This document shows positions 7,553 to 28,100 of a stretch of DNA of 34,209 bases, in pieces. The stretch is from an uncultured Gammaproteobacteria bacterium (GTDB taxonomy: Bacteria > Patescibacteriota > Patescibacteriia > Patescibacteriales > UBA12465). The notes under the pieces were generated by a model. The model did no database searches. It was not told where the DNA came from and saw nothing but the letters and a program-made list of their open reading frames with translations. The position numbers and the translations under genes were made by a program. The stretch spans positions 1-34,209 of the forward strand of contig CAYPWC010000001.1 in NCBI GenBank assembly GCA_964414335.1. Reading direction: 5' to 3'. Within the stretch, counting starts at the first letter, position 1, and each line of letters starts with the position of its first letter.

Positions 7553-8680
7553 ATGAATGAATATTTTATCCTCTTTCTTTTAGTGGTTTTAATTATTGGT
7601 CTAGCAATGGTGATTTTTTTGTTGTTAAGAAAAAAGACTGATAATGGTGGAGTGAAGATGGATGCTTTGGCCGAGAGACTAATTCAACAATCAGAAAAAT
7701 TATCACAACTTTCTTTGCAAAATAGCGAATTACGCCAAGAGCTTGATAAGAAATTATCAGAGACTCATCGCAGTAATCAGGAACAGTTTGGACAAACAAC
7801 TAGAATTGTTCAAGATATTAGCGCTCAATCGGCCAAACTTATTTCCGAAGTCACGGAGAAACTAACAAAACTAGATGAGACCAATAAGCAGGTGGTTAAT
7901 TTTTCTGCTCAACTACAAAATCTTCAAGACATTCTTAAAAATCCAAAGCAACGAGGAGTTTTGGGCGAGTATTTTTTAGAGGAGACGTTAAAAAACGTTC
8001 TTCCGCCCAAATCATATGCGATGCAATATAAGCTTGGTAAGGAGGAGAAAACGGGCAAGGATTTAATTGTTGATGCGGTCGTGTTTGTTAAAGACAAAGT
8101 GATTCCTATTGATGCCAAGTTTTCTTTAGAAAATTATGAACGGATTTTAAATGCGACTGACAGTGAGGCCCGGGCGAAGCTTGAAGTAGTATTTAAGCAG
8201 GATTTAAAAAATAGAATTGACGAAACCGCCAAGTACGTTTTACCGGAGAAGAAAACGATGGATTTTGCTTTTATGTTTATTCCTTCCGAGGCAATTTACT
8301 ATGATTTATTGGTTAATAAGGTGGGGGCGGTCAAGGTTAATACTCGGGACTTGATTGAATATGCTTTTCGCGACAAGAAGGTAATTATTGTTTCGCCAAC
8401 TTCTTTTCTTGCCTACCTGCAAACAGTCCTGCAGGGTTTAAAGGCCATGCAAATTGAAGAGCGGGCTAAAGAAATTCGGGTTAATATTGAAAAATTAGGG
8501 AAGCATATGAATAGCTATGACGAGTTTATGAAGAAGCTAGGATTGAGCATGGGGACAGCAGTTAATCATTATAATAATGCTTATTTAGAGTTTAAGAAGA
8601 TCGATAAAGATGTTATGAGAATTACCGATAAAGAAAGCAAAATTGAAACTTTAAAAATAGATCGTCCTAAGAATGCTTAA
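7553..8680 (+). CDS. rmuC: DNA recombination protein RmuC
   Basis: An N-terminal TM is followed by a long coiled coil. KQRGVLGEYFLEETL, IDAKFSLENY and FMFIPSEAIYYDL are typical of the RmuC family. Confidence 0.85.
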   Translation: MNEYFILFLLVVLIIGLAMVIFLLLRKKTDNGGVKMDALAERLIQQSEKLSQLSLQNSELRQELDKKLSETHRSNQEQFGQTTRIVQDISAQSAKLISEVTEKLTKLDETNKQVVNFSAQLQNLQDILKNPKQRGVLGEYFLEETLKNVLPPKSYAMQYKLGKEEKTGKDLIVDAVVFVKDKVIPIDAKFSLENYERILNATDSEARAKLEVVFKQDLKNRIDETAKYVLPEKKTMDFAFMFIPSEAIYYDLLVNKVGAVKVNTRDLIEYAFRDKKVIIVSPTSFLAYLQTVLQGLKAMQIEERAKEIRVNIEKLGKHMNSYDEFMKKLGLSMGTAVNHYNNAYLEFKKIDKDVMRITDKESKIETLKIDRPKNA

Positions 8681-9566
8681 TTTTCAAAGTTCGAAAATTG
8701 AACCCGAGGAGCAAGATATTATTGGCGTAATTGTCTTTTTTGATTTATTTGACCACCCCTTAACCGCCTGGGAATTAAAAAAATATTTGGCGACTAATAT
8801 TCTTTTTTCAGAGTGGCTGAAGATTTTAGATAAGTTGGTGGCAGCTGGTCAGCGGTTAGTTGAATGCGAAGGTTTTTATTGTTTAGCTGGTCGAGAGGAG
8901 ATTGTTAGAATCCGTCAAAAAAGACATAATTATTCGGAGAGAAAAATGAAAATTGCCCGACGATTCACGCGGATTTTTAAGATGTTTCCGGCTGTTCAAA
9001 TGGTCGCTTTGGCCAATTCTCTCGGGCAGAATAATTTACGAGATGGAAGTGATATTGATTTTTTTATTATCAGCAGCCCTAAGCGGATTTGGTTAACGAG
9101 ACTTTTTTGTGCTAGTTTGGCGAAGATGGCAAACAGTCGGCCAACGCAGAATAATAAGCGCGATAAAATTTGTTTAAGTTTTTATTTGGCAACCGATCAG
9201 CTTAATTTAAAGGAATTAGCTTTGTCAGGAGGGGATCCCTATTTTTTTTACTGGCAACGAACTTTAGTTTTGTTGTATAATAAAAACAAAACAGCTGAGA
9301 AGTTTTTTGCCGCTAATGGTTTTGGGTTAAAGGATGATGGTAGTGGTGAAAAATCAGCCACCTCGGTTTTTTCGGGACTCGTTAATGTCCTAGAGGTCTT
9401 AGCTAAAAAATTACAACTTATAATTATGTCGCCCGCGCTAAAACGGGCGGCTAACAATTCCGTCGGCGTTGTTATTAGGGAGGGAATACTCAAGCTCTAC
9501 CTTAAGGACAATCGTCAGGAATATGCTGAAAACTATGGAAACAGGCTTCGCGAAATTCTTTCGTAA
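8673..9566 (+). CDS. hypothetical protein, possible nucleotidyltransferase-fold domain
   Basis: The ATG overlaps the rmuC stop (ATGCTTAA), which implies translational coupling. ANSLGQNNLRDGSDIDFFII resembles the G[GS]...DxD signature of Pol-beta-type NTases. The functional call is weak. Confidence 0.55.
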   Translation: MLNFQSSKIEPEEQDIIGVIVFFDLFDHPLTAWELKKYLATNILFSEWLKILDKLVAAGQRLVECEGFYCLAGREEIVRIRQKRHNYSERKMKIARRFTRIFKMFPAVQMVALANSLGQNNLRDGSDIDFFIISSPKRIWLTRLFCASLAKMANSRPTQNNKRDKICLSFYLATDQLNLKELALSGGDPYFFYWQRTLVLLYNKNKTAEKFFAANGFGLKDDGSGEKSATSVFSGLVNVLEVLAKKLQLIIMSPALKRAANNSVGVVIREGILKLYLKDNRQEYAENYGNRLREILS

Positions 9567-10836
9567 AATAACAGAATATCTAAGTTATTTGTTTGTTTTT
9601 AGTTTGCCCTGGCAGGCGAAATTTATTATTCGCGCTAGTGAAACCAATTACTCAGAGATTAGCCTATATGCTAGTTATGGGCTGTTGGTGCTTATTTTAG
9701 GAATTTTCCTTTTTTGGCGCTTTAAAGAAGGGGGCAGCGACGATGAGTTTCGTCCATTGATTTATTCTTTAGCTTCTTTGGGTCTATTTATTTTTATTTC
9801 AATTTTCTTTGCTCCTGATAAGTTGTTAGCCTTTTATCGTTATTTTATTTTTTTAGCCGGCCTTAGTTTATTTTTTGTGGTAAGATTGGGCGCTCGGAGC
9901 AGAAGTTATTGTGAGCCCTGGTTTGATAAGATAAAGTTAATTTATAGTTTTTTAATTAGTATCTTTTTTCAGGCCTTATTAGGAATTTATCAATTTTTAA
10001 CTCAAAGCAGTCTGGAGTTTAAATATCTTGGGCTAGCTAATCATAACCCGTCGATTTTAGGAACATCGGTTATCGAAACAGAGGCTGGTCGTTGGTTGCG
10101 AGCCTATGGTGGCCTTGACCACCCCAATATTTTAGGAGGAGTTTTGGCTCTCGCTTTAATTTTAGCCGCCTATTTATTGGCCAAAAAGAAAAATCTCAAT
10201 ACGCGTCGTCAGCTATGGTCGTCAATTTTTCTATTTGTTTTTTATTTTGTTTCCCTGTATGCCCTTTTCTTTACATTTTCTCGCAGCGCTTGGCTAGCAT
10301 TTATTGTTGGTTTAGTGGCTTTATTGGTAGTTTTTATTATTAAAAAAGATAAGTGGATTATTAGTCGTTTTATAGCAATTATTTTTTTCTCCGCCGTTTT
10401 AATTGGTGTCGCCGCCGTTCCTTATCAAGATTTATTATTGGTCCGTCTTGACGGCGAAAGTCGTTTAGAACAAAAATCAATTACGGAACGCACTTTATAT
10501 ACTTGGCAGGCGAAAGATTTAATTGAAAAAAACTTTTTATCAGGAGTGGGGGTGGGAAATTATACTACGGCTCTAGCCGTCCAGGATGGTTATAGTCAAC
10601 CAACTTGGAATTACCAACCAGTCCACAATGCTTGGTTGCTTCTCTGGGCGGAAAGCGGCGTCTTTTCCTTATTGTCACTTTTAATTTTCTTCTTTTCCTT
10701 AATTAGAAGCGGCCGCCGGGAGGCTTATGCTTTTGCAATTTTGGCGCCCATAATTGTTTTAATGATTTTTGATCATTGGCTTATCAGTTTGCCCTTTGGT
10801 GTGATTTTTTTCTTTTTATTCCTGGCTTTGATTTAG
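9523..10836 (+). CDS. O-antigen ligase / polymerase (Wzy_C)-like polytopic membrane protein
   Basis: Many TM segments are present. The central FSRSAWLAFIVGLVALL, a large loop and then HNAWLLLWAESG are typical of the O-antigen ligase family. The track start at 9469 is a TTG deep inside the previous gene. The ATGs at 9523 or 9535 are more plausible, so the start is uncertain. Confidence 0.7.
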   Translation: MLKTMETGFAKFFRKITEYLSYLFVFSLPWQAKFIIRASETNYSEISLYASYGLLVLILGIFLFWRFKEGGSDDEFRPLIYSLASLGLFIFISIFFAPDKLLAFYRYFIFLAGLSLFFVVRLGARSRSYCEPWFDKIKLIYSFLISIFFQALLGIYQFLTQSSLEFKYLGLANHNPSILGTSVIETEAGRWLRAYGGLDHPNILGGVLALALILAAYLLAKKKNLNTRRQLWSSIFLFVFYFVSLYALFFTFSRSAWLAFIVGLVALLVVFIIKKDKWIISRFIAIIFFSAVLIGVAAVPYQDLLLVRLDGESRLEQKSITERTLYTWQAKDLIEKNFLSGVGVGNYTTALAVQDGYSQPTWNYQPVHNAWLLLWAESGVFSLLSLLIFFFSLIRSGRREAYAFAILAPIIVLMIFDHWLISLPFGVIFFFLFLALI

Positions 10837-19214: not shown

Positions 19215-20600
19215 ATGCCGAGAAGAAAAAAAAATCAGCCGGAAGCGGCCGCTAAAAAAGTTGAAAGGAGGGGTGATAAAACACCCGGCCGTCTTTTAGG
19301 AATGAAAGATTTAGTTGGCTCAGAACAAACTTGTTATGACTTTGTTGCTAATAAAGCTTTGAATTTGGCAAAATTATATAGTTTTTCAGCGGTGAAAACG
19401 CCGATTATGGAAAGCTTTGACCTCTATAAAAAGTCGAGTCGCAAAAATAATGATAAGGAATTCTATTTTGTTGAGGGTGAGAAAAGTGAGAAAATGGTTT
19501 TACGGCCAGAGCTTACTCAAGGAACGATTCGGGCTTACTTAGAGAATAACTTAGCTGAAAGCGGTTTGCCAGCAAGACTTTTTTCTTTGGGATCTGTTTT
19601 TCGTCGTGAGAAATTACAGTCTGGTCGCTACCGAGAATCAACTCAGCTTAACTTAGAAATAATTGGTGAGAAAAAGCCAATGGCTGAAGCTTTGTTAATT
19701 ACCATTGCCCATAATTTTTTTGAAGAACTGCAAATTAATATGCAGGTTCAAATTAATAGTTTAGGGACGGCAGAATGTCGAAAAGAATATTGTAATAAGT
19801 TACTCGCTTTCTATAAAGAGCGTGGTCGTCGTTCGAAGCTCTGTAATGTTTGTAAAAATAATTTAGGTAAAAATTGTCTGAGCTTACTTGATTGTAAAGA
19901 GGATGAATGTGTTAAGGCGCGCGAAGAAGCTCCGCAAATTGCCGACTATTTATCAGACGAAAGTCGAGAGCATTTTACTAAGACTTTGGAATTTTTAGAT
20001 GAATTAAATATTAACTATAACTATAATCCTTATTTGGTTAGAGGTTTAAATTATTATAACGATACGGTCTTTGAATTTTGGCCGGTTAATGATGAGGGGG
20101 TCGCTTTAGGAAAAGTGGCGCTTGGTGGCGGTGGTCGTTATGACTCTTTGGTGGAAAATTTGGGAGGAGCTTCGACTCCGGCCGTGGGATTGGCCTTAGG
20201 GCTTGAAAGAGCGGTCGGTCGCCTAAAAGATAAACACCTCTTGGCAAATCCGGCTGAAGAGGATATAGTGTTTATTGCCCAGTTAGGAGATCAGGCAAAG
20301 TTGAGAGCTTTACAGCTTTTTCAGGACCTGAGACGGGCAGGCTTTAATGTTAGACAGTCGTTTGCTTCAGACAGCTTAAAGGTTCAGCTCGAGGAAGCGG
20401 TGGCAATGAGAGCAAAAACAAGTTTAATATTAGGTAAAAAAGAAATAATGGATGGAACTATTTTAATGAGAGATATGGACTCAGGCGCTCAAGAGGTGGT
20501 AGTTTACAAGAAAATCAAAGAGCGCTTAGCTAAAAAAGATAAATTAATCGAAAAAAGATTAAATAATAGAAAGGAAGGTGGATTATATGGCGGACTTTAA
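19215..20600 (+). CDS. hisS: histidine--tRNA ligase
   Basis: Motifs LRPELTQGTIRAY, FRREKLQSGRYRESTQLNLE, LVRGLNYYNDTVFEF and GGGGRYD, plus an anticodon-binding C-terminus. I take the ATG at 19215, because the track start at 19176 overlaps lepB. Confidence 0.9.
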   Translation: MPRRKKNQPEAAAKKVERRGDKTPGRLLGMKDLVGSEQTCYDFVANKALNLAKLYSFSAVKTPIMESFDLYKKSSRKNNDKEFYFVEGEKSEKMVLRPELTQGTIRAYLENNLAESGLPARLFSLGSVFRREKLQSGRYRESTQLNLEIIGEKKPMAEALLITIAHNFFEELQINMQVQINSLGTAECRKEYCNKLLAFYKERGRRSKLCNVCKNNLGKNCLSLLDCKEDECVKAREEAPQIADYLSDESREHFTKTLEFLDELNINYNYNPYLVRGLNYYNDTVFEFWPVNDEGVALGKVALGGGGRYDSLVENLGGASTPAVGLALGLERAVGRLKDKHLLANPAEEDIVFIAQLGDQAKLRALQLFQDLRRAGFNVRQSFASDSLKVQLEEAVAMRAKTSLILGKKEIMDGTILMRDMDSGAQEVVVYKKIKERLAKKDKLIEKRLNNRKEGGLYGGL

Positions 20601-20820
20601 GAGAAAACCAGGAGAGAGTTTTGAAAGCTTTCTTCGTAAATTTAAGAAGGGCTTGAAAAACAGCAAAAGATTAGAAAAAGCCCGGTCAAAACAGCATCTT
20701 GAGCCCAAAAATACAAAACGGCTCCAAAAGAAATATGCTTTGACCAGTTTAGCGTTGAGCAAAAAAAATGAACATTTGCGACGTATCGGCAAATTGCCGG
20801 AGAGCACAATGAGACCATAA
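20587..20820 (+). CDS. rpsU: 30S ribosomal protein S21
   Basis: GESFESFLRKFKKGLKNSKRLEKARSKQHLEPKNTKRL matches the S21 pattern (ESFE..LRRFKR...G.L.E.R.R..YEKPS..R). SD GGAAGGTGGA lies just upstream of the ATG at 20587. The gene overlaps the hisS 3' end by 14 nt. Confidence 0.75.
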   Translation: MADFKRKPGESFESFLRKFKKGLKNSKRLEKARSKQHLEPKNTKRLQKKYALTSLALSKKNEHLRRIGKLPESTMRP

Positions 20821-22369: not shown

Positions 22370-22378
22370 TGTTATAAT
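22370..22378 (+). promoter_or_regulatory. candidate extended -10 element (TGtTATAAT) for the giant-protein operon
   Basis: TGTTATAAT at 22370-22378 has no good -35. It lies about 60 nt upstream of the ATG at 22437. Confidence 0.3.
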
Positions 22379-22436: not shown

Positions 22437-25151
22437 ATGACTAAAAAAATTAAAGTAATCATTTTTATTTTTAGCTTTTTAGCCCTAGGGTTGGGAGCTA
22501 ATTTTGTGTTAGCCCAAGGCGCTGATTTCGGTTTGGAGCCAGTAACGGAAACAATTGATTTGGCTCAATCCGATCCGCGAGTAATTATTGGTCGAATTAT
22601 TCAAGTCGCCCTAAGTTTTCTAGGGGCGATTGCCTTGTTTTTAATCATGTATGCCGGTTTTCAGTGGATGACCTCCGGTGGCGATCAGGAAAAATTAGGA
22701 AACGCCAAAAAGATGCTTCGAAATGCTGTAATTGGATTAATCATTGTCTTGTCTTCTTGGGCAATTACTACTTTTATCTTGACTAAGCTTTTTGATACTA
22801 TTGGTGGCACTGGTGGGAGTATTAATAGTAGTGGTGGAAGGAATTTTGTTGACTCCGGTGTTGGGGCTATTGGTGCTTGTACGATTGATGCCTTTTATCC
22901 GGAAAATGGTCAACCGGATGTCCCGCGTAACACCTCGATTATGGTGAGCTTCAAAGAGCGGATTAGTTTAGCGAGTTTATGTGTTAATAATAGTCAAGAA
23001 GCCTGTAATTGCGATAGTAGTAGCTGCAATAAACTTAACCCGGAGGTAGTTAGAATTTATAAGAGTGATTTGGGCGATGCTTGTTCAAGTGGGTCGTGCC
23101 CGAAGACTAATGCCAATATCACCGACGTCACGGTTAGCGTTTCTAGCGACAATAAAACAATGGTTCTAATGCCGGCTACTTATTTGGGCGATCCGGCTCA
23201 AAATATTTGGTATGCCGTAAAGATTACTGGTGATTTAAGAAAAGAGGACGGCACCTCAATGTTTAAAAACTGTGACAGTAATTACTTTAATTGGAAATTT
23301 CAAGTCGGAACAAGACTAGATTTAACGCCGCCTCAAGTGGCTTTTGGTAATATTTTTCCTCTACCCGACAACGAAAACGATGTTGAAAATCAGGTTGCCT
23401 TAGCGGTTCCAGCTCAGGGCGCGATTACGGTAAATGCTTGCCCTAATACCTATAAGCCGGCTATGGTTTTAAGTGTTAGTCCTATCGGTAATACACCAGA
23501 AGGAATCGTGACACCACTGAATTATCGAGGAACCATCACTAAATTTAAAGTTGTTATTTCTTCTGATTCCCGCGACCGAGCTCAGTTATTTGATGGTAAC
23601 AGTAGTACTAACTTATTAGGTTCTGGTGATTTCGATGCTCAAGGGAATGTTAAATTCGCCTCCTATTTTATTCTTAAGGCCACCGATCGCAACCCAGGAA
23701 ATTCTTGGGAGGTCAGTCTATCGCCAGAACAGCTTGCCGATACTATTAAAATTGGGGAAGCGGTTTATACTTTTTCAAATGCCGCACCAGGTAATAATAA
23801 TATTATTGTTCCTAACAATTGTGAACCAAAAACTCAGGCTAGTCAGATTTATTCGGTATTAAGCGGTGATCCGTTGGTTAACGTCGGCTATCGAGGCGGA
23901 AGCACGGTTACGTTAACTTCTAAAGTAGCTGGAACGGCTGGTGATAAAATTTCTCTTAGCACGACTAACCAAGCCGCTCTTCAAGTGGAGCCGCTTAAAG
24001 GTGGTCGTGATCGTCAAGACTTAGCCGAAACTAAAGACAAGAAGGATGTGCCGATGAATACAGTTATTCAAGTAAATTTTAGTGAGGCTGTTAATCCTCT
24101 GCGCGTTGCTGGCCTTGCCTCAGAAGTCGCAAATTATATTCGTGTGGTTAATTATGATACTGGCAGCAAGACGGCTGGTTCAGCGTGTACGAAAGACGCC
24201 GATTGTCGGTCATATAAATGCGAGGGCTCTGCGGGCAGTCAAACTTGCTTAGGAAATTATGTCGCCGGAAAATTTTTAGTCAGTAATGCTTATCGGACAG
24301 TGGAATTTGTTTCCGACAACGAATGCGGTGTTAATGGTTGCGGAGAAAAGATCTATTGCCTTCCAGCTAATAGTCATTTGGCCGTGGAAATGGTTTCTTC
24401 TGACCTTAAAACTTGCGCCACAGATACTGATTGTGCGGGCTTTGCCCCTTTTAAAACCTGTGCCGCCACTTCTTTGGGATATAAGACTTGCCAGAATTTT
24501 GAAAATAAAAACTATCCGACCGCTACCAGCACTTTAAATGGTATTGTTGATGCGGCGATTAATTCTTTTGATGGTGATCGTGATATTTTTGCTGATGGTC
24601 CAATTGCTTTCTATAATGATAATTTTAAACCAACTGAAAATTTAAATAAAAAAGATAATTATCGTTGGTCTTTCTATGTCAACGATAAAGTCATGTTAAC
24701 CCCTCCTCAGATAGAAAGTGTTACCCCCGCTCAAGGTTTAATGGGTGTAAATTTAGCTGACCCAATTAGAATCTCTTGGAACACTTTAATGATGAATAGT
24801 ACCTTAACCACAGGTAGTCGTATAATTCAGAGTGGAGACAATGTTTTTGAACATAAGCTGATTAATTTAAGAAGCTCTAGTCCCAGCGCCGTTGGTTATT
24901 GGATTTTAAACGATAATATTGATACGGAGCCATTAGACGGTGAACCCGATAAGACTGTTTCTTGGATTAATCATTCGCCGCTTGCGGAGGCAATGTCATA
25001 TCGGGCTCAAGTTGGTTCAGGAGTGAGAGATATTTATCAGAATTGTTTTAAACCGAGCGCAGGGGTTAATTGTCCGGTTACCGCGACTAATCCATCTTGT
25101 TGTTTTGGGGCGGCCACCAGTACTTTAGGGCCAGATGGTAATTGTCAATAA
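22437..25151 (+). CDS. giant surface protein 1 (904 aa): signal peptide + VirB2/TrbC-like two-helix pilin module + Cys-containing ectodomain with several SbsA/Big_5-like Ig domains
   Basis: The signal peptide MTKKIKVIIFIFSFLALGLGANFVLA is followed by QGADFG. The hairpin runs IIGRIIQVALSFLGAIALFLIMYAGFQWMTSGGDQEKLGNAKKMLRNAVIGLIIVLSSWAITTFILTKLF. Ig-like starts are YPENGQPDVPRNTSIMVSF, KDVPMNTVIQVNFSEAV and VTPAQGLMGVNLADPIRISW. The gene ends in tandem TAATAA stops. Confidence 0.85.
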   Translation: MTKKIKVIIFIFSFLALGLGANFVLAQGADFGLEPVTETIDLAQSDPRVIIGRIIQVALSFLGAIALFLIMYAGFQWMTSGGDQEKLGNAKKMLRNAVIGLIIVLSSWAITTFILTKLFDTIGGTGGSINSSGGRNFVDSGVGAIGACTIDAFYPENGQPDVPRNTSIMVSFKERISLASLCVNNSQEACNCDSSSCNKLNPEVVRIYKSDLGDACSSGSCPKTNANITDVTVSVSSDNKTMVLMPATYLGDPAQNIWYAVKITGDLRKEDGTSMFKNCDSNYFNWKFQVGTRLDLTPPQVAFGNIFPLPDNENDVENQVALAVPAQGAITVNACPNTYKPAMVLSVSPIGNTPEGIVTPLNYRGTITKFKVVISSDSRDRAQLFDGNSSTNLLGSGDFDAQGNVKFASYFILKATDRNPGNSWEVSLSPEQLADTIKIGEAVYTFSNAAPGNNNIIVPNNCEPKTQASQIYSVLSGDPLVNVGYRGGSTVTLTSKVAGTAGDKISLSTTNQAALQVEPLKGGRDRQDLAETKDKKDVPMNTVIQVNFSEAVNPLRVAGLASEVANYIRVVNYDTGSKTAGSACTKDADCRSYKCEGSAGSQTCLGNYVAGKFLVSNAYRTVEFVSDNECGVNGCGEKIYCLPANSHLAVEMVSSDLKTCATDTDCAGFAPFKTCAATSLGYKTCQNFENKNYPTATSTLNGIVDAAINSFDGDRDIFADGPIAFYNDNFKPTENLNKKDNYRWSFYVNDKVMLTPPQIESVTPAQGLMGVNLADPIRISWNTLMMNSTLTTGSRIIQSGDNVFEHKLINLRSSSPSAVGYWILNDNIDTEPLDGEPDKTVSWINHSPLAEAMSYRAQVGSGVRDIYQNCFKPSAGVNCPVTATNPSCCFGAATSTLGPDGNCQ
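22572..22793 (+). other. VirB2/TrbC-type (T4SS-pilin-like) hairpin module of protein 1
   Basis: Two hydrophobic helices are joined by a short charged loop (TSGGDQEKLGNAKKMLR). By hand alignment, 46 of 74 residues are identical to the protein-2 module, with no gaps. Confidence 0.55.
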
Positions 25152-25172
25152 TAATATATTTATAATAAATCT

Positions 25173-28100
25173 GTGAAACTGCTGCAAAAAAAAGTTATTA
25201 AAAACCTTTTCGTCGGTATTTTTGTCCTAGCCGGCCTGGTTTTCGTGCGCCTAGTGTTGGCGGCAGATTTTGGTGAGGAGGCTGTTAATAGTGGTCTCGA
25301 CGGTTCTTTGGCAACCGGCGATCCGAGAACTTTAGCTGGTCGAATAATTAATATCGCTTTAGGGTTTTTAGGAACAGTGGCCGTGGGTATAATAATGTGG
25401 GGCGGATTTACCTGGATGACCGCTAGTGGTGATGAAGATAAAATTTTACAGGCTAAGAAGATTCTTAGAAACGGTGTAATCGGTCTAGTTATTATCCTTT
25501 CTTCCTGGGCAATTGCTACCTTTATCTTAACCCGCCTGGGAGGAGCGATTAGTGGTGATAATAGTGGCTGCTTTGATGGTCAAATCCAGGCTTGCGGTTG
25601 TGGCGGTCAAATGGTTTGCAGTGACGGTTCTTGGGGTGCTTGTGTTGGTTCTAATATTCAAGATTGTTTAAATGCTCCGACGAGTTGTGATGGCGGACTG
25701 GCCGCTGGTTGTCAGGCCACCGACCAGATTTGTGCTGCCGGATATTTTTGTGATGATAGTTGTTTCTGCCGAACTCAAGGAGATTCGGGTGATTCTTGCG
25801 ATGGTAATTTGAATAATCAAAAATGCGATGCGGACAATAATCGCTGTTCAGAATATTTGACTTGTAATCCAGACACTTGTCTTTGTGCCGGCCCGCCAGT
25901 TATTACTGGGCTTAGTCCGGTGGGGGGATTTTGTAATGCTAATCCCGATAAGCCGTGCAGACAAAACAGTGAATGTGGCGCGGGTGACACTTGTAATCAG
26001 TTAGCGGCCAATGGTGCTTCTAACAACTTTTTAACTATTTTTGGAAAGAACTTTGGCGAATATGTGGAAGGAGCTAGCCAGGTAGTATTTTTGGGGAACA
26101 ACAATCCTCAAGCGGGAGTATTACCGTCGGTGATTAATCCAGCTTGCGTTAGCTTTTGGACTGATAAGCAGATTGTAATCGCTATCCCCACGGGAGTTAC
26201 CACTGGCGCCATTCAGGTTATAAATAGCGAAAGCCTAACTGATAGTAGTGGTGATAACTATGGTCCACGCTTAGCGGATTTTGTTGCTAATAAGATTAAT
26301 CGTCCCGGGTTATGCTCTCTTGATCCTAGCGTAGGGGTTTTGAGTTCCGAGGTTAACTATCAAGGAGTAAATCTTTTCTCTGGTCAGGCCTATTTTGGCA
26401 ATTATCAAAGCAATGTGAGCGGCCTTTATTCTTCCTTTGATAATCCTACGGGTTTTTCTGGTGTTTCTTTAACACCTAACATTAAAGAAGGAGAATCGGG
26501 CAGCTTTGTGGAGCGGGTGGTAGCGGGTTATCCGCAGAAAAGTAACTATTTGAAATTTATAAAAGACGCCGAAGAGGGCGATGGACCATATATTTCCTCT
26601 TTCACGCCATTAGTGGGAACCGCTGGCCAATATATTACCATTAAAGGCTCTGGTTTTGGTGGCGCGAGAGGCAATAATCAGGTTTATTTTGTTAGTGGAA
26701 GCAATAAAATTGAAGCTTCATATTTATTCCCGGCAATTTGTGCTAATTCGGTTTGGAGTGATAAGCAAATTATTATTAAGGTTCCTGAGGGGTTGGTTAA
26801 TGATTATTATCAACTGGAAATTTCTTTAGGAGCTAAAACTATTTCCAGTCAGAATTTGAATCCTAATACTTTTGAATATAATCAAAATACCGCTCTTAAA
26901 ACCAGTTTATGTAAAATCGATCCGGAGCAGGGTTCAATTGATACCCCGGTTACTTTATGGGGGGAATATTTTGGTCAGGTGGGGGGGAATGGTTTAGTGC
27001 GCTTTAGTACTAATCGTGACGCTAGCGGAGTAATTGCTAAGGAGGAAACGGCGGATGTTATTAAAACGACAGTTCCTAAAGAAGCGGTTACGGGTGTAGT
27101 TAAGGTTATCAAAAATAATGATTGGGGTAATGAGTTGAACTTTGCAGTCGGAGAATGTACTCAAGATAGTGAATGCAATAATCAAGTTTGTTGTCCTAAA
27201 AATACCTATCGTGAAGGGCGTTGCATGTCTTCACTTGCAGAATGTTTTGTTAATGTTCCGACTTCAGTTTTTGAATGGAGTTTTAGCACTAGTTTCGATG
27301 CGACCAATAAGCCAGTCTTCGATAGTTGTTTAGGTTTATCTAAATACTTGGGAAGTTGCTATCAAGGAGCGTCTTGTCCAAATTCTCCGGGCGCCTGCTC
27401 TTCACCGTCAACCGATTATCAAGAGGTGGTGGGAAGCTGTGATTTTAGTTGCCAGAACGTTCCTGGCTGTACAGCCGCTACTTGTATTTATAATCCTGAT
27501 CTTAATCGTTGCGTTTTAAATGTTAGTAGCGGTGTTTGTGATTTAGCAAAAGAAACTACTTTTAATATTTTTGGTCGGGAGTTAACCACTAAACAAACGT
27601 GTAACTCTGAGGGTAAATGGGAAATTACTACCGCCGGTTCTTGTCCTGATGGCTGGGTTAGACAAACAAATAATCGTTGTGTTTTTGAAAGTGCTAGTTG
27701 TAGTCTTTGTGGTTCTGACTTAACTTGTGAATCGGTAAGTGGCAGCGGTCGTTGTGTTTCGGAAAAAATTTGTGCCGGTGAAGCTAAATGCATTGACAAT
27801 CCGATAGTTGGTGAGGCGGATAAATGCGTAATCGCGGTTGAACCTAGTTGTGAGTGCTGCTGTCGGATTGGAAAAGATGCCGAAGATTGTTGCGCGGGTC
27901 TAACTTGTGCTGGAGAATGCGGCTCGGACTTAGTAAATGATAGCGATACCTATGGATCTTGTTCAGGCTGTGCTTTGCAGGGATCAACTCAAGCCGAATG
28001 GGATGCAGCTTGTAATTGTTCTGGGCATGGAGCTCAGTTTTGTGCCGTTACTTCAACCCATCCCGAAGGAATTTGTTCAGATTGTAGTAAAATAGGCGAC

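What the first reader, a model, noticed from the sequence alone, without database searches (positions are those of the whole stretch)
22437..25541. VirB2/TrbC-like pilin hairpin used as the N-terminal module of two giant ectodomain proteins, with no T4SS genes nearby
Proteins 1 and 2 share the same N-terminal layout.
- Each has a signal peptide and a mature N-terminus (A)DFG(L/E)E.
- About 15 residues later comes a helix / charged loop / helix unit (...FLGAIALFLIMYAGFQWMTSGGDQEKLGNAKKML.RNAVIGLIIVLSSWAITTFIL...).
- The two units are 46/74 identical by my hand alignment.

This pattern is two long hydrophobic helices with a short basic loop containing G-D-x-x-K...AKK. It matches what I know of TrbC/VirB2 conjugative pilins and of the small T4SS-pilin-like proteins common in CPR genomes.

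Canonical VirB2 pilins are roughly 70-130 aa and have both termini outside the membrane. Here the second helix continues into about 780 or 1790 further residues, which that topology would place outside the cell.

Two roles are possible. The pilin fold may serve as a membrane anchor for a giant adhesin. Alternatively, these may be minor or tip subunits that decorate a VirB2-type filament. No VirB4, VirB6 or VirD4 gene is visible in 22 kb upstream.
Basis: partly seen in the sequence, partly recalled or inferred. Interest (0 to 1): 0.75.

Follow-up and report, generated by a model that had tools for sequence, protein, structure and literature searches.

The report
Giant surface proteins on pilin-like anchors
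Two neighbouring genes of an uncultured ultra-small (CPR, Falkowbacteria-like) bacterium encode very large cell-surface proteins whose first ~120 residues are a genuine copy of the small VirB2-like "type IV secretion pilin" hairpin; this fused design is conserved in hundreds of relatives, yet I found no description of it in the papers I could search.

Summary
P1 (22437-25151, 904 aa) and P2 (25173-30920, 1915 aa) each begin with a signal peptide and a helix / charged loop / helix unit, 46/74 identical. Both units score above Pfam's threshold for T4SS_pilin (PF18895), the CPR VirB2-like family.

The link to canonical VirB2/TrbC is remote. PF04956 is below threshold. A profile-profile match is in register and about 9 SD above composition-matched controls. 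Fold search was uninformative.

The C-terminal parts are cysteine-rich chains of Ig-like domains (Big_5, TIG, fn3). S-layer protein SbsC is the best fold match, and the topology places them outside the cell.

This is not a one-off. At least 279 P1-type and 304 P2-type proteins share the architecture. P1-P2-P3 sits next to relA in most of 80 related species. Other CPR proteins of 336-3716 aa carry the same N-terminal hairpin.

No T4SS gene lies within 10 kb in the window or in 85 related loci. Two carrier genomes are published as VirB4-positive.

My best reading is a "modular VirB2-type pilin": the hairpin tethers a giant surface domain. Whether it stays in the membrane or enters a T4SS filament is unresolved. 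I rate it a new variant of a known kind.

The parts
22370..22378 (+). TGTTATAAT, an extended -10-like motif in the 93-bp relA/P1 intergenic region; candidate promoter of the P1-P2-P3 operon
   Evidence: Read directly from the sequence. The consensus scan of the region is not above chance, so this is weak evidence.
22437..25151 (+). P1, 904 aa: signal peptide + T4SS_pilin hairpin + Gly-rich linker + Ig-like/Cys-rich ectodomain
   Evidence: PF18895 at residues 50-114, 40.6 bits; Big_5 x2. At least 279 homologues of about 900 aa share the architecture. AF2 model of the full protein.
22437..22514 (+). P1 signal peptide (residues 1-26, KK + hydrophobic core + V-L-A | Q)
   Evidence: Sequence inspection and hydropathy. 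A26 is invariant in alignments A1 and A2. Not run through SignalP.
22572..22796 (+). P1 pilin-like hairpin (residues 46-120: helix 1, loop TSGGDQEKLGNAKKMLRN, helix 2)
   Evidence: Pfam PF18895. AF2 helices 47-79 and 84-123, pLDDT about 90. Most conserved part of the protein among 52 orthologues: pairwise identity 0.64-0.73 against 0.57 for the ectodomain. hhalign to VirB2/TrbC.
22797..22856 (+). P1 Gly-rich flexible linker (residues 121-140)
   Evidence: pLDDT below 50 at residues 123-139. Pairwise identity is only 0.27 and no column is conserved.
22857..25148 (+). P1 ectodomain (residues 141-904): all-beta, Ig-like domains, 26 Cys
   Evidence: Big_5 hits. AF2 secondary structure. Foldseek best hits are S-layer SbsC 4uj6 (E 2e-8), LdtMt2 Ig domains and Sap S-layer domains. 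24 of 26 Cys are at least 90 % conserved.
25173..30920 (+). P2, 1915 aa (GTG start): signal peptide + T4SS_pilin hairpin + Cys-rich / TIG / Big_5 / fn3 ectodomain
   Evidence: PF18895 at residues 52-118, 40.2 bits; TIG, Big_5, fn3. At least 304 homologues of 1650-2320 aa share the architecture. The GTG start is conserved in orthologues.
25320..25544 (+). P2 pilin-like hairpin (residues 50-124)
   Evidence: 46/74 identical to the P1 hairpin.
30942..34209 (+). P3 (partial, more than 1089 aa, runs off the window): secreted Cys-rich protein, third gene of the conserved operon; no pilin hairpin
   Evidence: Frame translation. No Pfam or NCBIfam hit. Orthologues are 1020-1663 aa with a signal peptide only. 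Adjacent to P2 in related loci.
33908..34209 (+). 111-nt tandem repeat (2.7 copies, 98 % identical) inside P3, encoding a Cys-rich unit
   Evidence: translation.

Best explanation
P1 and P2 are modular VirB2-type pilins. Each joins a copy of the small CPR T4SS_pilin hairpin, through a Gly-rich linker, to a very large disulfide-rich chain of Ig-like domains.

Proposed mechanism:
1. The Sec system inserts the protein into the membrane.
2. Signal peptidase I removes the leader, leaving the new N-terminus outside.
3. Helix 1 spans the membrane from outside to inside.
4. The conserved loop (W-M-T-S-x-G-D-x-E-K...A-K-K) faces the cytoplasm.
5. Helix 2 spans from inside to outside and restarts export of the 780- or 1790-residue C-terminal part.

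The hairpin thus sits in the membrane in the same topology as the pre-assembly pool of VirB2 pilins, and it tethers an S-layer-like or adhesin-like ectodomain on the surface of this wall-bearing, single-membrane cell. Together with the secreted Cys-rich P3, the two proteins probably form one conserved surface structure, encoded by a three-gene operon fixed next to relA in Falkowbacteria-type (class ABY1) genomes.

What is shown: family membership of the hairpin, the domain content, conservation and synteny, and the absence of neighbouring T4SS genes.

What is inferred: the cleavage site, the topology, the operon, complex formation with P3, and above all that the hairpin normally remains in the membrane as an anchor or oligomerisation unit rather than being pulled into a filament.
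For: - Hairpin is a family member. PF18895 is above threshold in both proteins. Residues invariant across stand-alone pilins are retained: G74, A90, I99-G100-L101, T79, G82, N96.
- Not a generic anchor. hhalign to real VirB2/TrbC scores 35.4, against controls of 8.5-21.7. The hairpin is more conserved than the ectodomain, and far more than the signal peptide or linker.
- Outside topology. There is a leader plus two TM segments and no other hydrophobic segment. The N-segment has net charge -1.7 against +0.5 for the loop, which holds about 3.75 K/R. Big_5, TIG and fn3 domains are present. The cysteines are conserved. The ectodomain is all-beta, with S-layer proteins SbsC and Sap as best fold matches.
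- Real, conserved architecture. At least 279 and 304 homologues share it. 94 species-level genomes encode a relative. P1 follows relA in the loci that include the upstream flank. P2, with its own hairpin, follows P1 in about 56 of 80 loci. The gaps P1-P2 and P2-P3 are 21 nt each.
- Anchor reading.
  - No T4SS gene lies within 10 kb in the window or in 85 relatives.
  - The same hairpin heads many other long proteins of 336-3716 aa.
  - The hairpin also occurs as 2-11 tandem copies in single polytopic proteins. This suggests it is used generally as a membrane-embedded building block.
  - A 100-200 kDa cargo on every subunit is hard to fit into a VirB2-type helical filament. This is inference from published pilus structures, not tested here.
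Against: - High conservation of the hairpin, including its cytoplasmic loop, is more than a passive anchor needs. It would also fit recognition by a T4SS or co-assembly with stand-alone pilins.
- One carrier genome also encodes a stand-alone 151-aa paralogue that is 51 % and 43 % identical to its P1 and P2 hairpins. That is the pattern expected for a major pilin plus modular minor pilins.
- Carrier genomes ADurb.Bin115 and HGW-Falkowbacteria-1 are listed as VirB4-positive (PMC12102498, Table S1).
- Topology and cleavage were not checked with dedicated predictors. The charge bias across the hairpin is modest.
- No experimental localisation exists for any member of the family.
Confidence: 0.5

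Rival explanations
1. P1 and P2 are modular minor or tip pilins of a T4SS filament. The T4SS extracts the hairpin from the membrane and incorporates it sparsely, or as the first (tip) subunit, into a pilus built from small stand-alone VirB2-like pilins. The giant Ig-like part would then act as the host-binding adhesin and replace the VirB5 or PrgB adhesins that CPR systems lack.
For: - The hairpin keeps all family-invariant residues and is the best conserved part of the protein.
- A stand-alone paralogue exists in the same genome as a P1+P2 pair.
- Carrier genomes are VirB4-positive in PMC12102498 Table S1.
- That paper found no PrgB-like adhesins in Patescibacteria. CPR pilin arrays are essential in Southlakia (PMC10633639).
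- In VirB2-type pili both termini lie on the outside (established structures; my knowledge), so a C-terminal graft is topologically allowed.
- Modular type IV pilins such as PilB set a precedent (PMC8179133).
Against: - No T4SS gene lies within 10 kb in any of 85 loci.
- CPR T4SS pili have not been demonstrated structurally.
- The cargo is extremely large: 784 and 1791 residues here, and up to about 3600 in relatives.
- Tandem poly-hairpin proteins argue that the module can work as a resident membrane unit.
- Fold search gave no specific match to solved conjugative pilins.
Confidence: 0.25
2. The ectodomains are the structural surface coat (S-layer-like lattice) of these cells rather than host adhesins. 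P1, P2 and P3 would form a regular envelope layer that the pilin-derived hairpins tether to the membrane. This differs from the best explanation only in the role assigned to the ectodomain.
For: - The best Foldseek hits of the P1 model are S-layer proteins: SbsC (E 2e-8 and 2.5e-7) and Sap domains 1-2 (1.5e-3).
- The genes are single-copy, syntenic and vertically inherited. Their divergence is similar to that of housekeeping neighbours: P1 31-68 % and HisRS 38-86 % across the same loci. That is unlike fast-evolving adhesins.
- Cryo-EM of groundwater CPR cells has reported S-layer-like envelopes (my recollection of Luef et al. 2015; not checked here).
Against: - TM-scores are low (about 0.1), so the matches only reflect strings of Ig-like sandwiches, which adhesins also have.
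- No SLH or other wall-binding domain was found.
- There is no expression or abundance data.
- About 17 distant lineages keep P1 without P2.
Confidence: 0.2
3. The hairpin is just a generic two-helix membrane anchor, or the long ORFs are assembly or gene-calling artefacts that fuse a small pilin gene to a downstream gene.
For: - Foldseek with the hairpin model returns only generic helical hairpins: ATP synthase c, CHMP4B, ING4.
- The TrbC Pfam model is below threshold.
Against: - PF18895 is above its curated threshold.
- The hhalign score to VirB2/TrbC is about 9 SD above shuffles that preserve the helix layout. ATP synthase c and MscL do not match.
- The helices and loop are strongly conserved in sequence.
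- Identical architecture recurs in hundreds of independent assemblies down to 32 % identity.
- There is no stop codon or frame change between hairpin and ectodomain.
Confidence: 0.03

Closest known systems
Stand-alone VirB2-like pilins of Patescibacteria (Pfam PF18895 T4SS_pilin; Quinonero-Coronel et al. 2025, PMC12102498; essential pilin array of Southlakia epibionticum, Wang et al. 2023, PMC10633639)
   Same: - Same sequence family, with the HMM above threshold.
- Same signal peptide plus helix / charged loop / helix layout and the same invariant residues.
- Same phylum.
- Like many of them, not adjacent to virB4.
   Different: - Those are about 100-170 aa and end shortly after helix 2. Here helix 2 runs on into 784 or 1791 extracytoplasmic residues.
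- P1 and P2 are a fixed two-gene pair next to relA, not part of a variable array.
- The P1 and P2 hairpins are 62 % identical, against about 25 % on average within published arrays.
Canonical conjugative pilins VirB2 (Agrobacterium) / TrbC (RP4), Pfam PF04956
   Same: - Leader plus two hydrophobic helices and a short polar loop.
- The profile-profile alignment is in register, from the 'DP' at the start of helix 1 to the 'WM' at its end.
- The inferred membrane topology is the same.
   Different: - Below the Pfam threshold.
- The loop is 7 residues longer.
- Head-to-tail cyclisation is not possible with a C-terminal extension (inference).
- Not encoded beside virB3 or virB4.
- The organism is a monoderm.
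- The size is 8-16 times larger.
Modular type IV pilins, e.g. PilB of Streptococcus sanguinis (Raynaud et al. 2021, PMC8179133)
   Same: The design principle matches: a small N-terminal pilin module serves as carrier or anchor, and a bulky functional module is grafted on through a short linker. That study found such pilins to be widespread, including in CPR genomes.
   Different: The filament superfamily is unrelated. Type IV pilins have a class III leader cut by a prepilin peptidase and a single N-terminal helix. P1 and P2 have a class I leader and a two-helix VirB2-type hairpin.
S-layer proteins SbsC (Geobacillus) and Sap/EA1 (Bacillus anthracis)
   Same: They are the best structural matches of the P1 ectodomain: elongated strings of Ig-like beta-sandwich domains on the surface of a monoderm.
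   Different: - No sequence similarity.
- No SLH or SCWP-binding domain.
- Anchoring here is through a membrane hairpin.
- Lattice formation is untested.
Surface adhesins of Gram-positive T4SSs (PrgB-type, LPXTG-anchored) and the VirB5 tip adhesin
   Same: The possible role is the same: contact with a target cell in a T4SS-bearing organism.
   Different: - There is no LPXTG motif and no C-terminal hydrophobic segment.
- There is no VirB5 or PrgB homology.
- PrgB-like adhesins were reported absent from Patescibacteria.
Pam pili of CPR bacteria (Troman et al. 2026 preprint, 10.64898/2026.03.03.709456)
   Same: CPR-specific surface structures built from Ig-like domains and exported by Sec.
   Different: - Pam pilins assemble by donor-strand exchange with membrane-anchored chaperones and have no VirB2-like hairpin.
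- They are found mainly in Saccharimonadia and Microgenomatia.

Membership tests
Pfam PF18895 T4SS_pilin (CPR VirB2-like pilins) | Score above the curated gathering threshold of the family HMM | tested here: met
   P1 40.6 bits and P2 40.2 bits against a cut-off of 26.6. The N-terminal fragments alone score 43.9 and 49.0 bits.
Pfam PF18895 T4SS_pilin (CPR VirB2-like pilins) | Signal peptide followed by two long hydrophobic helices joined by a short charged loop, with the family's conserved residues | tested here: met
   Hydropathy. AF2 helices 47-79 and 84-123. G74, A90 and I99-G100-L101 are invariant, and T79, G82 and N96 nearly invariant, in an alignment with stand-alone members.
Pfam PF18895 T4SS_pilin (CPR VirB2-like pilins) | Small stand-alone protein (about 100-170 aa) ending soon after helix 2 | tested here: not met
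   904 and 1915 aa. The same holds in at least 279 and 304 homologues.
Pfam PF18895 T4SS_pilin (CPR VirB2-like pilins) | Encoded in or near a T4SS cluster (virB4, prgI/virB3, virB6-like), often in arrays | tested here: not met
   The window holds only housekeeping genes. Four annotated relatives show the same. tblastn with a CPR T4SS gene set against 1.67 Mb of related loci gave no hit. This feature is not strict: only 1,135 of 1,948 assemblies have a pilin near virB4, and Falkowbacteria pilins are flagged as not near it.
Canonical VirB2/TrbC conjugative pilins (Pfam PF04956) | Score above the gathering threshold of PF04956 | tested here: not met
   21.4 bits (P1 N-terminus) and 15.3 bits (P2 N-terminus) against 27.9. 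A few orthologues carry weak precomputed PF04956 hits.
Canonical VirB2/TrbC conjugative pilins (Pfam PF04956) | Detectable homology to experimentally defined VirB2/TrbC proteins | tested here: inconclusive
   hhalign of the module profile (A1) against 8 annotated VirB2/TrbC proteins from conjugative MPF_T plasmids (A3) gives 72.9 % probability, E 3e-5 and 58 columns in register. Controls: reversed 14.1, layout-preserving shuffles 12.4 +/- 2.5 (maximum 21.7), against the real score of 35.4. AtpE, MscL and F TraA do not match the hairpin. This suggests remote homology but does not prove it.
Canonical VirB2/TrbC conjugative pilins (Pfam PF04956) | Fold match to solved conjugative pilins | tested here: inconclusive
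   Foldseek against the PDB gave no hit at E <= 1e-3 and only generic helical hairpins; no pilin appears in the top 50. The sequence profile against the PDB found nothing. A two-helix hairpin is too simple for this test to discriminate.
Canonical VirB2/TrbC conjugative pilins (Pfam PF04956) | Polymerises with phospholipid into an extracellular pilus assembled by a T4SS | not testable with these tools
   This needs multimer modelling, cryo-EM or fractionation. No multimer predictor was available.
Modular type IV pilins (PilB type) | Class III leader (short, ending in Gly, cut by a prepilin peptidase) and a single N-terminal alpha-1 helix (IPR012902) | tested here: not met
   The leaders are class I (KK + hydrophobic core + VLA|Q or VLA|A) and are followed by a two-helix hairpin. 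No type IV pilin domain appears in Pfam or NCBIfam. This family is an analogue only.
S-layer proteins (SbsC/Sap type) | Cell-wall anchoring module (SLH or SCWP-binding) and self-assembly into a lattice | tested here: not met
   No SLH or similar domain was found. Only a fold-level resemblance of Ig-like domain strings exists. Lattice formation cannot be tested here.
Sortase-anchored (LPXTG) adhesins such as PrgB | C-terminal LPXTG motif + hydrophobic segment + basic tail | tested here: not met
   The C-termini read ...LGPDGNCQ (P1) and ...AEVMVDLR (P2). No hydrophobic segment occurs beyond residue 124.

The most novel reading that the evidence does not exclude
P1 and P2 would be the first modular pilins of the type IV secretion (VirB2) class. 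In this reading, CPR T4SS filaments are capped or decorated by giant hairpin-fused Ig-like proteins. These supply the host-recognition function that VirB5 or PrgB provide elsewhere. The tens of thousands of CPR T4SS_pilin family members (small, tandem and giant) would then form one combinatorial surface-filament system.
Probability: 0.2. Interest if true: 0.8.

Novelty: new variant of a known kind. Interest (0 to 1): 0.55.

Why it matters
- CPR/Patescibacteria depend on contact with host cells, and their T4SS and VirB2-like pilins are essential in the one genetically tractable species. How these monoderm cells make contact through that system is unknown, and no T4SS adhesin has been found in them.
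- A widely conserved class of giant surface proteins built on the pilin hairpin gives a concrete candidate. It may be the missing adhesin, or it may be the long-unidentified surface coat of these cells.
- It also shows that the VirB2 fold can serve as a carrier or anchor for very large cargo, as is already known for type IV pilins.
- In practice, annotation pipelines currently call these proteins "pilin", "Ig-like domain-containing protein" or "IPT/TIG domain-containing protein". Surveys that count VirB2 homologues by HMM will silently mix them with true small pilins.

Tried and rejected
- Foldseek of the hairpin model against the PDB returned only generic helical hairpins. It says nothing for or against VirB2.
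- hmmsearch or phmmer against PDB sequences found nothing, using the hairpin profile, the P1 family profile and P2.
- The promoter and terminator scan of 20.5-34.2 kb gave counts close to shuffled expectation. The operon is therefore inferred only from the 21-nt gaps and conserved synteny.
- The search for stand-alone hairpin paralogues in the window found none.
- The search for T4SS genes near P1 in 85 related loci found none.
- I tried to locate the T4SS on the same contigs as P1 orthologues. This was not possible with the look-up tools, so I relied on published tables S1 and S3 of PMC12102498. Those tables cover two carrier genomes and several Falkowbacteria in which I did not verify that P1 is present.
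- Literature searches combined T4SS_pilin/PF18895, VirB2, Patescibacteria, adhesin, giant, modular pilin, S-layer and Falkowbacteria. No paper in the held library describes hairpin-to-giant-ectodomain fusions. The library excludes most subscription journals, so this absence is not proof.
- The Pam pilus preprint was checked and rejected as the same thing.
- The artefact explanation (fused gene calls) was rejected because of the hundreds of concordant orthologues.

Full report
**Anatomy.**
The finding's span holds P1 (22437-25151, 904 aa) and the start of P2 (25173-30920, 1915 aa, GTG start). P2 is followed after 21 nt by P3 (30942 to beyond 34209), which has a signal peptide but no hairpin. 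P1 and P2 share one layout:
- a basic-hydrophobic leader ending V-L-A;
- a mature N-terminus (QG)ADFG(L/E)E;
- about 16 residues later, a D-P-R motif that opens a long hydrophobic helix ending in W-M-T;
- a charged loop (SGGDQEKLGNAKKMLRN in P1, ASGDEDKILQAKKILRN in P2);
- a second hydrophobic helix;
- a Gly-rich stretch.

Hydropathy finds only these three hydrophobic segments in each protein. AlphaFold2 models P1 residues 47-79 and 84-123 as a helical hairpin with pLDDT about 90. In the full-length model a disordered linker (123-139) follows, and then all-beta domains run to the C-terminus.

**What the hairpin is.**
- Both proteins pass the curated threshold of Pfam PF18895 T4SS_pilin (40.6 and 40.2 bits against 26.6).
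- The canonical TrbC/VirB2 model PF04956 aligns over its full length but stays below threshold (21.4 and 15.3 bits against 27.9).
- NCBIfam's Mbov_0395 pilin-like conjugal transfer model scores 36.6-36.7 bits against a cut-off of 40.
- To test the link to real VirB2, I retrieved eight annotated VirB2/TrbC genes, each lying next to virB3, from conjugative MPF_T plasmids. I compared their profile with a profile of the module plus its closest relatives (alignment A1).
- hhalign gives 72.9 % probability, E 3e-5 and 58 columns in register, from the "DP" at the start of helix 1 to the "WM" at its end.
- The score of 35.4 compares with 14.1 for the reversed target, 10.9 +/- 1.9 for column shuffles and 12.4 +/- 2.5 (maximum 21.7) for shuffles that keep the leader / helix / loop / helix layout.
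- ATP synthase subunit c and the window's own MscL score 8.5 and 10.8. F-pilin matches only in the leader.

The module is therefore not a generic two-helix anchor. It is a bona fide member of the CPR VirB2-like family and a plausible remote homologue of VirB2/TrbC. The structural tests could not add to this. Foldseek returned only generic helical hairpins, and no solved pilin is reachable by sequence profile.

**The C-terminal parts.**
- P1 carries Big_5 Ig-like domains. P2 carries TIG, Big_5 and fn3 domains and 120 cysteines.
- In 52 P1 orthologues, 24 of 26 cysteines are at least 90 % conserved, and all lie after residue 148.
- The best Foldseek matches of the P1 model are the S-layer protein SbsC (E 2e-8), the Ig-like domains of LdtMt2 and the Sap S-layer domains. 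TM-scores are low, as expected for flexible strings of beta-sandwiches.
- A cleavable leader plus two TM helices, the charge distribution (N-segment -1.7, loop +0.5 with about 3.75 K/R) and this domain content all place the large part outside the cell. This topology is inferred, not computed with a dedicated predictor.

**Distribution.**
- P1 has at least 279 database homologues. The top 120 are 822-933 aa and 50-100 % identical, and all but one N-terminally truncated entry (P0028) are annotated PF18895 + Big_5. Sources name them "pilin" or "Ig-like domain-containing protein" from Patescibacteria or Candidatus Falkowbacteria.
- P2 has at least 304 homologues of 1650-2320 aa; nearly all of the 120 listed carry PF18895, with TIG in most and Big_5 or fn3 in many, and three of the shorter entries lack the pilin hit.
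- A scan of one genome per species found 94 species with a P1 relative.
- In the 80 loci kept, the P1 orthologue follows a divergently oriented relA/spoT in those that include the upstream flank. A P2 orthologue with its own hairpin follows in about 56. About 17 more distant lineages have P1 alone.
- Four annotated contigs of up to 911 kb show the same order as the window: M16 peptidase, addA-like, ruvB, queA, lepB, hisS, a 77-aa ORF, relA(-), then P1, P2, P3.
- This is a vertically inherited core locus.
- A profile of the module matches 88,908 cluster representatives (E <= 1e-3) in 1.84 billion proteins.
- Among the 146 best-scoring representatives, 32 have a single N-terminal hairpin in a protein of 336-3716 aa. 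Six of these that I scanned all carry Big_5, Big_7 or TIG domains. Six are small stand-alone pilins. The remaining 108 contain 2-11 tandem hairpins in one polypeptide. This ranking favours multi-copy and P1/P2-like sequences, so these are not unbiased proportions.

**Relation to the T4SS.**
- The window contains only housekeeping genes besides P1-P3.
- A CPR T4SS gene set came from a locus where small pilins sit beside VirB4-like, TraC-like, PrgI and TrbL_3 genes. It finds nothing in 1.67 Mb of P1-bearing loci.
- The genomes are nevertheless not T4SS-free. Two carriers, ADurb.Bin115 (L024) and HGW-Falkowbacteria-1 (L059), are class ABY1 and VirB4-positive in Table S1 of Quinonero-Coronel et al. 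2025.
- In that paper's Table S3, Falkowbacteria genomes show VirB4 + TrsD, plus VirB2-like genes that are all flagged as not near virB4. Separation from the T4SS is therefore the rule in this class and says little.
- One carrier assembly (GCA_964509735.1) also encodes a stand-alone 151-aa pilin between a polysaccharide synthase gene and nusA. It is 51 % and 43 % identical to that genome's P1 and P2 hairpins.

**Interpretation.**
- The hairpin is the most conserved part of P1. Pairwise identity is 0.73 (helix 1), 0.64 (loop) and 0.68 (helix 2), against 0.57 for the ectodomain, 0.46 for the leader and 0.27 for the linker. That is more constraint than a passive anchor needs.
- I conclude that P1 and P2 are modular VirB2-type pilins, in which a pilin hairpin carries a giant surface domain.
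- I favour (0.5) the reading that the hairpin stays in the membrane as an anchor or oligomerisation unit of a P1-P2-P3 surface structure. The reasons are the cargo size, the general use of the module in polytopic and giant proteins, and the lack of any T4SS linkage.
- I cannot exclude (0.25) sparse or tip incorporation into a T4SS filament. That would fill the reported absence of PrgB-like adhesins in Patescibacteria and would parallel modular type IV pilins such as PilB.
- Whether the ectodomain is an adhesin or an S-layer-like coat is also open.

**Novelty.**
- CPR VirB2-like pilins, their arrays and their essentiality are published.
- In the searchable library I found no description of hairpin fusions to giant ectodomains.
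- The recently described Pam pili are a different system.
- The sequences themselves are already in public databases with automatic names. I therefore rate the finding as a new variant of a known kind, of moderate to good interest.

Noticed in passing
window 30942-34209 (+), runs off the end: P3 is the third gene of the conserved operon. It is a secreted, very Cys-rich protein of more than 1089 aa with no Pfam or NCBIfam hit. Orthologues are 1020-1663 aa with a signal peptide only, and one carries a Beta_helix domain. Its end holds a 111-nt tandem repeat (2.7 copies, 98 % identical) at 33908-34209.
   Followed up: partly
proteins P0143-P0288, e.g. P0143, P0148: Many CPR proteins consist of 2-11 tandem T4SS_pilin hairpins in one polypeptide. 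P0143 has one signal peptide followed by six hairpins with no internal leaders. They look like genuine polytopic 'poly-pilins' rather than merged gene calls, and I did not find them described.
   Followed up: partly
proteins P0227, P0232, P0235, P0241, P0245 etc.: About 20 cluster representatives of 2900-3716 aa carry the same single N-terminal hairpin. P0227, the one of this size that I scanned, continues with Big_5, Big_7 and TIG domains; P0261 (2573 aa) also has LVIVD repeats. The hairpin-plus-giant-ectodomain design therefore extends well beyond the P1 and P2 families.
   Followed up: partly
L094 10001-10456 (GCA_964509735.1, contig CAZDYJ010000011.1): A stand-alone 151-aa T4SS_pilin paralogue lies in the same assembly as the P1+P2 orthologues of L014. 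It sits between a Polysacc_synt gene and nusA with no T4SS gene nearby, and is 51 % and 43 % identical to that genome's P1 and P2 hairpins.
   Followed up: partly
window 20578-20820 (+): An 80-aa ORF between hisS and relA has no Pfam hit. A 75-77-aa gene occupies the same position in all four annotated related contigs (L001, L003, L004, L005). It looks like a conserved small protein of unknown function.
   Followed up: no
L009, L010, L013-L015 and many others: Many TPA metagenome-assembled genomes carrying this typical CPR locus are titled 'uncultured Gammaproteobacteria bacterium'. The record titles are evidently mislabelled.
   Followed up: no
window 22370-22378 (+): TGTTATAAT, an extended -10-like motif, lies in the 93-bp intergenic region between relA (minus strand) and P1. 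None of P1, P2 and P3 has a Shine-Dalgarno motif at a canonical distance from its start.
   Followed up: no
window 8673-9566 and 9469-10836 (+): A 297-aa ORF without any family hit overlaps by about 100 nt the TTG-started Wzy_C (O-antigen ligase-like) ORF. The upstream start of the latter is probably over-extended.
   Followed up: no
L095 1-13941: This is an example of a compact CPR T4SS cluster. VirB4-like (DUF87/P-loop_TraG), TraC-like, PrgI and TrbL_3 genes lie divergent from an array of six or seven small T4SS_pilin genes that are 24-70 % identical to each other. I used it as the reference set for the T4SS search.
   Followed up: yes
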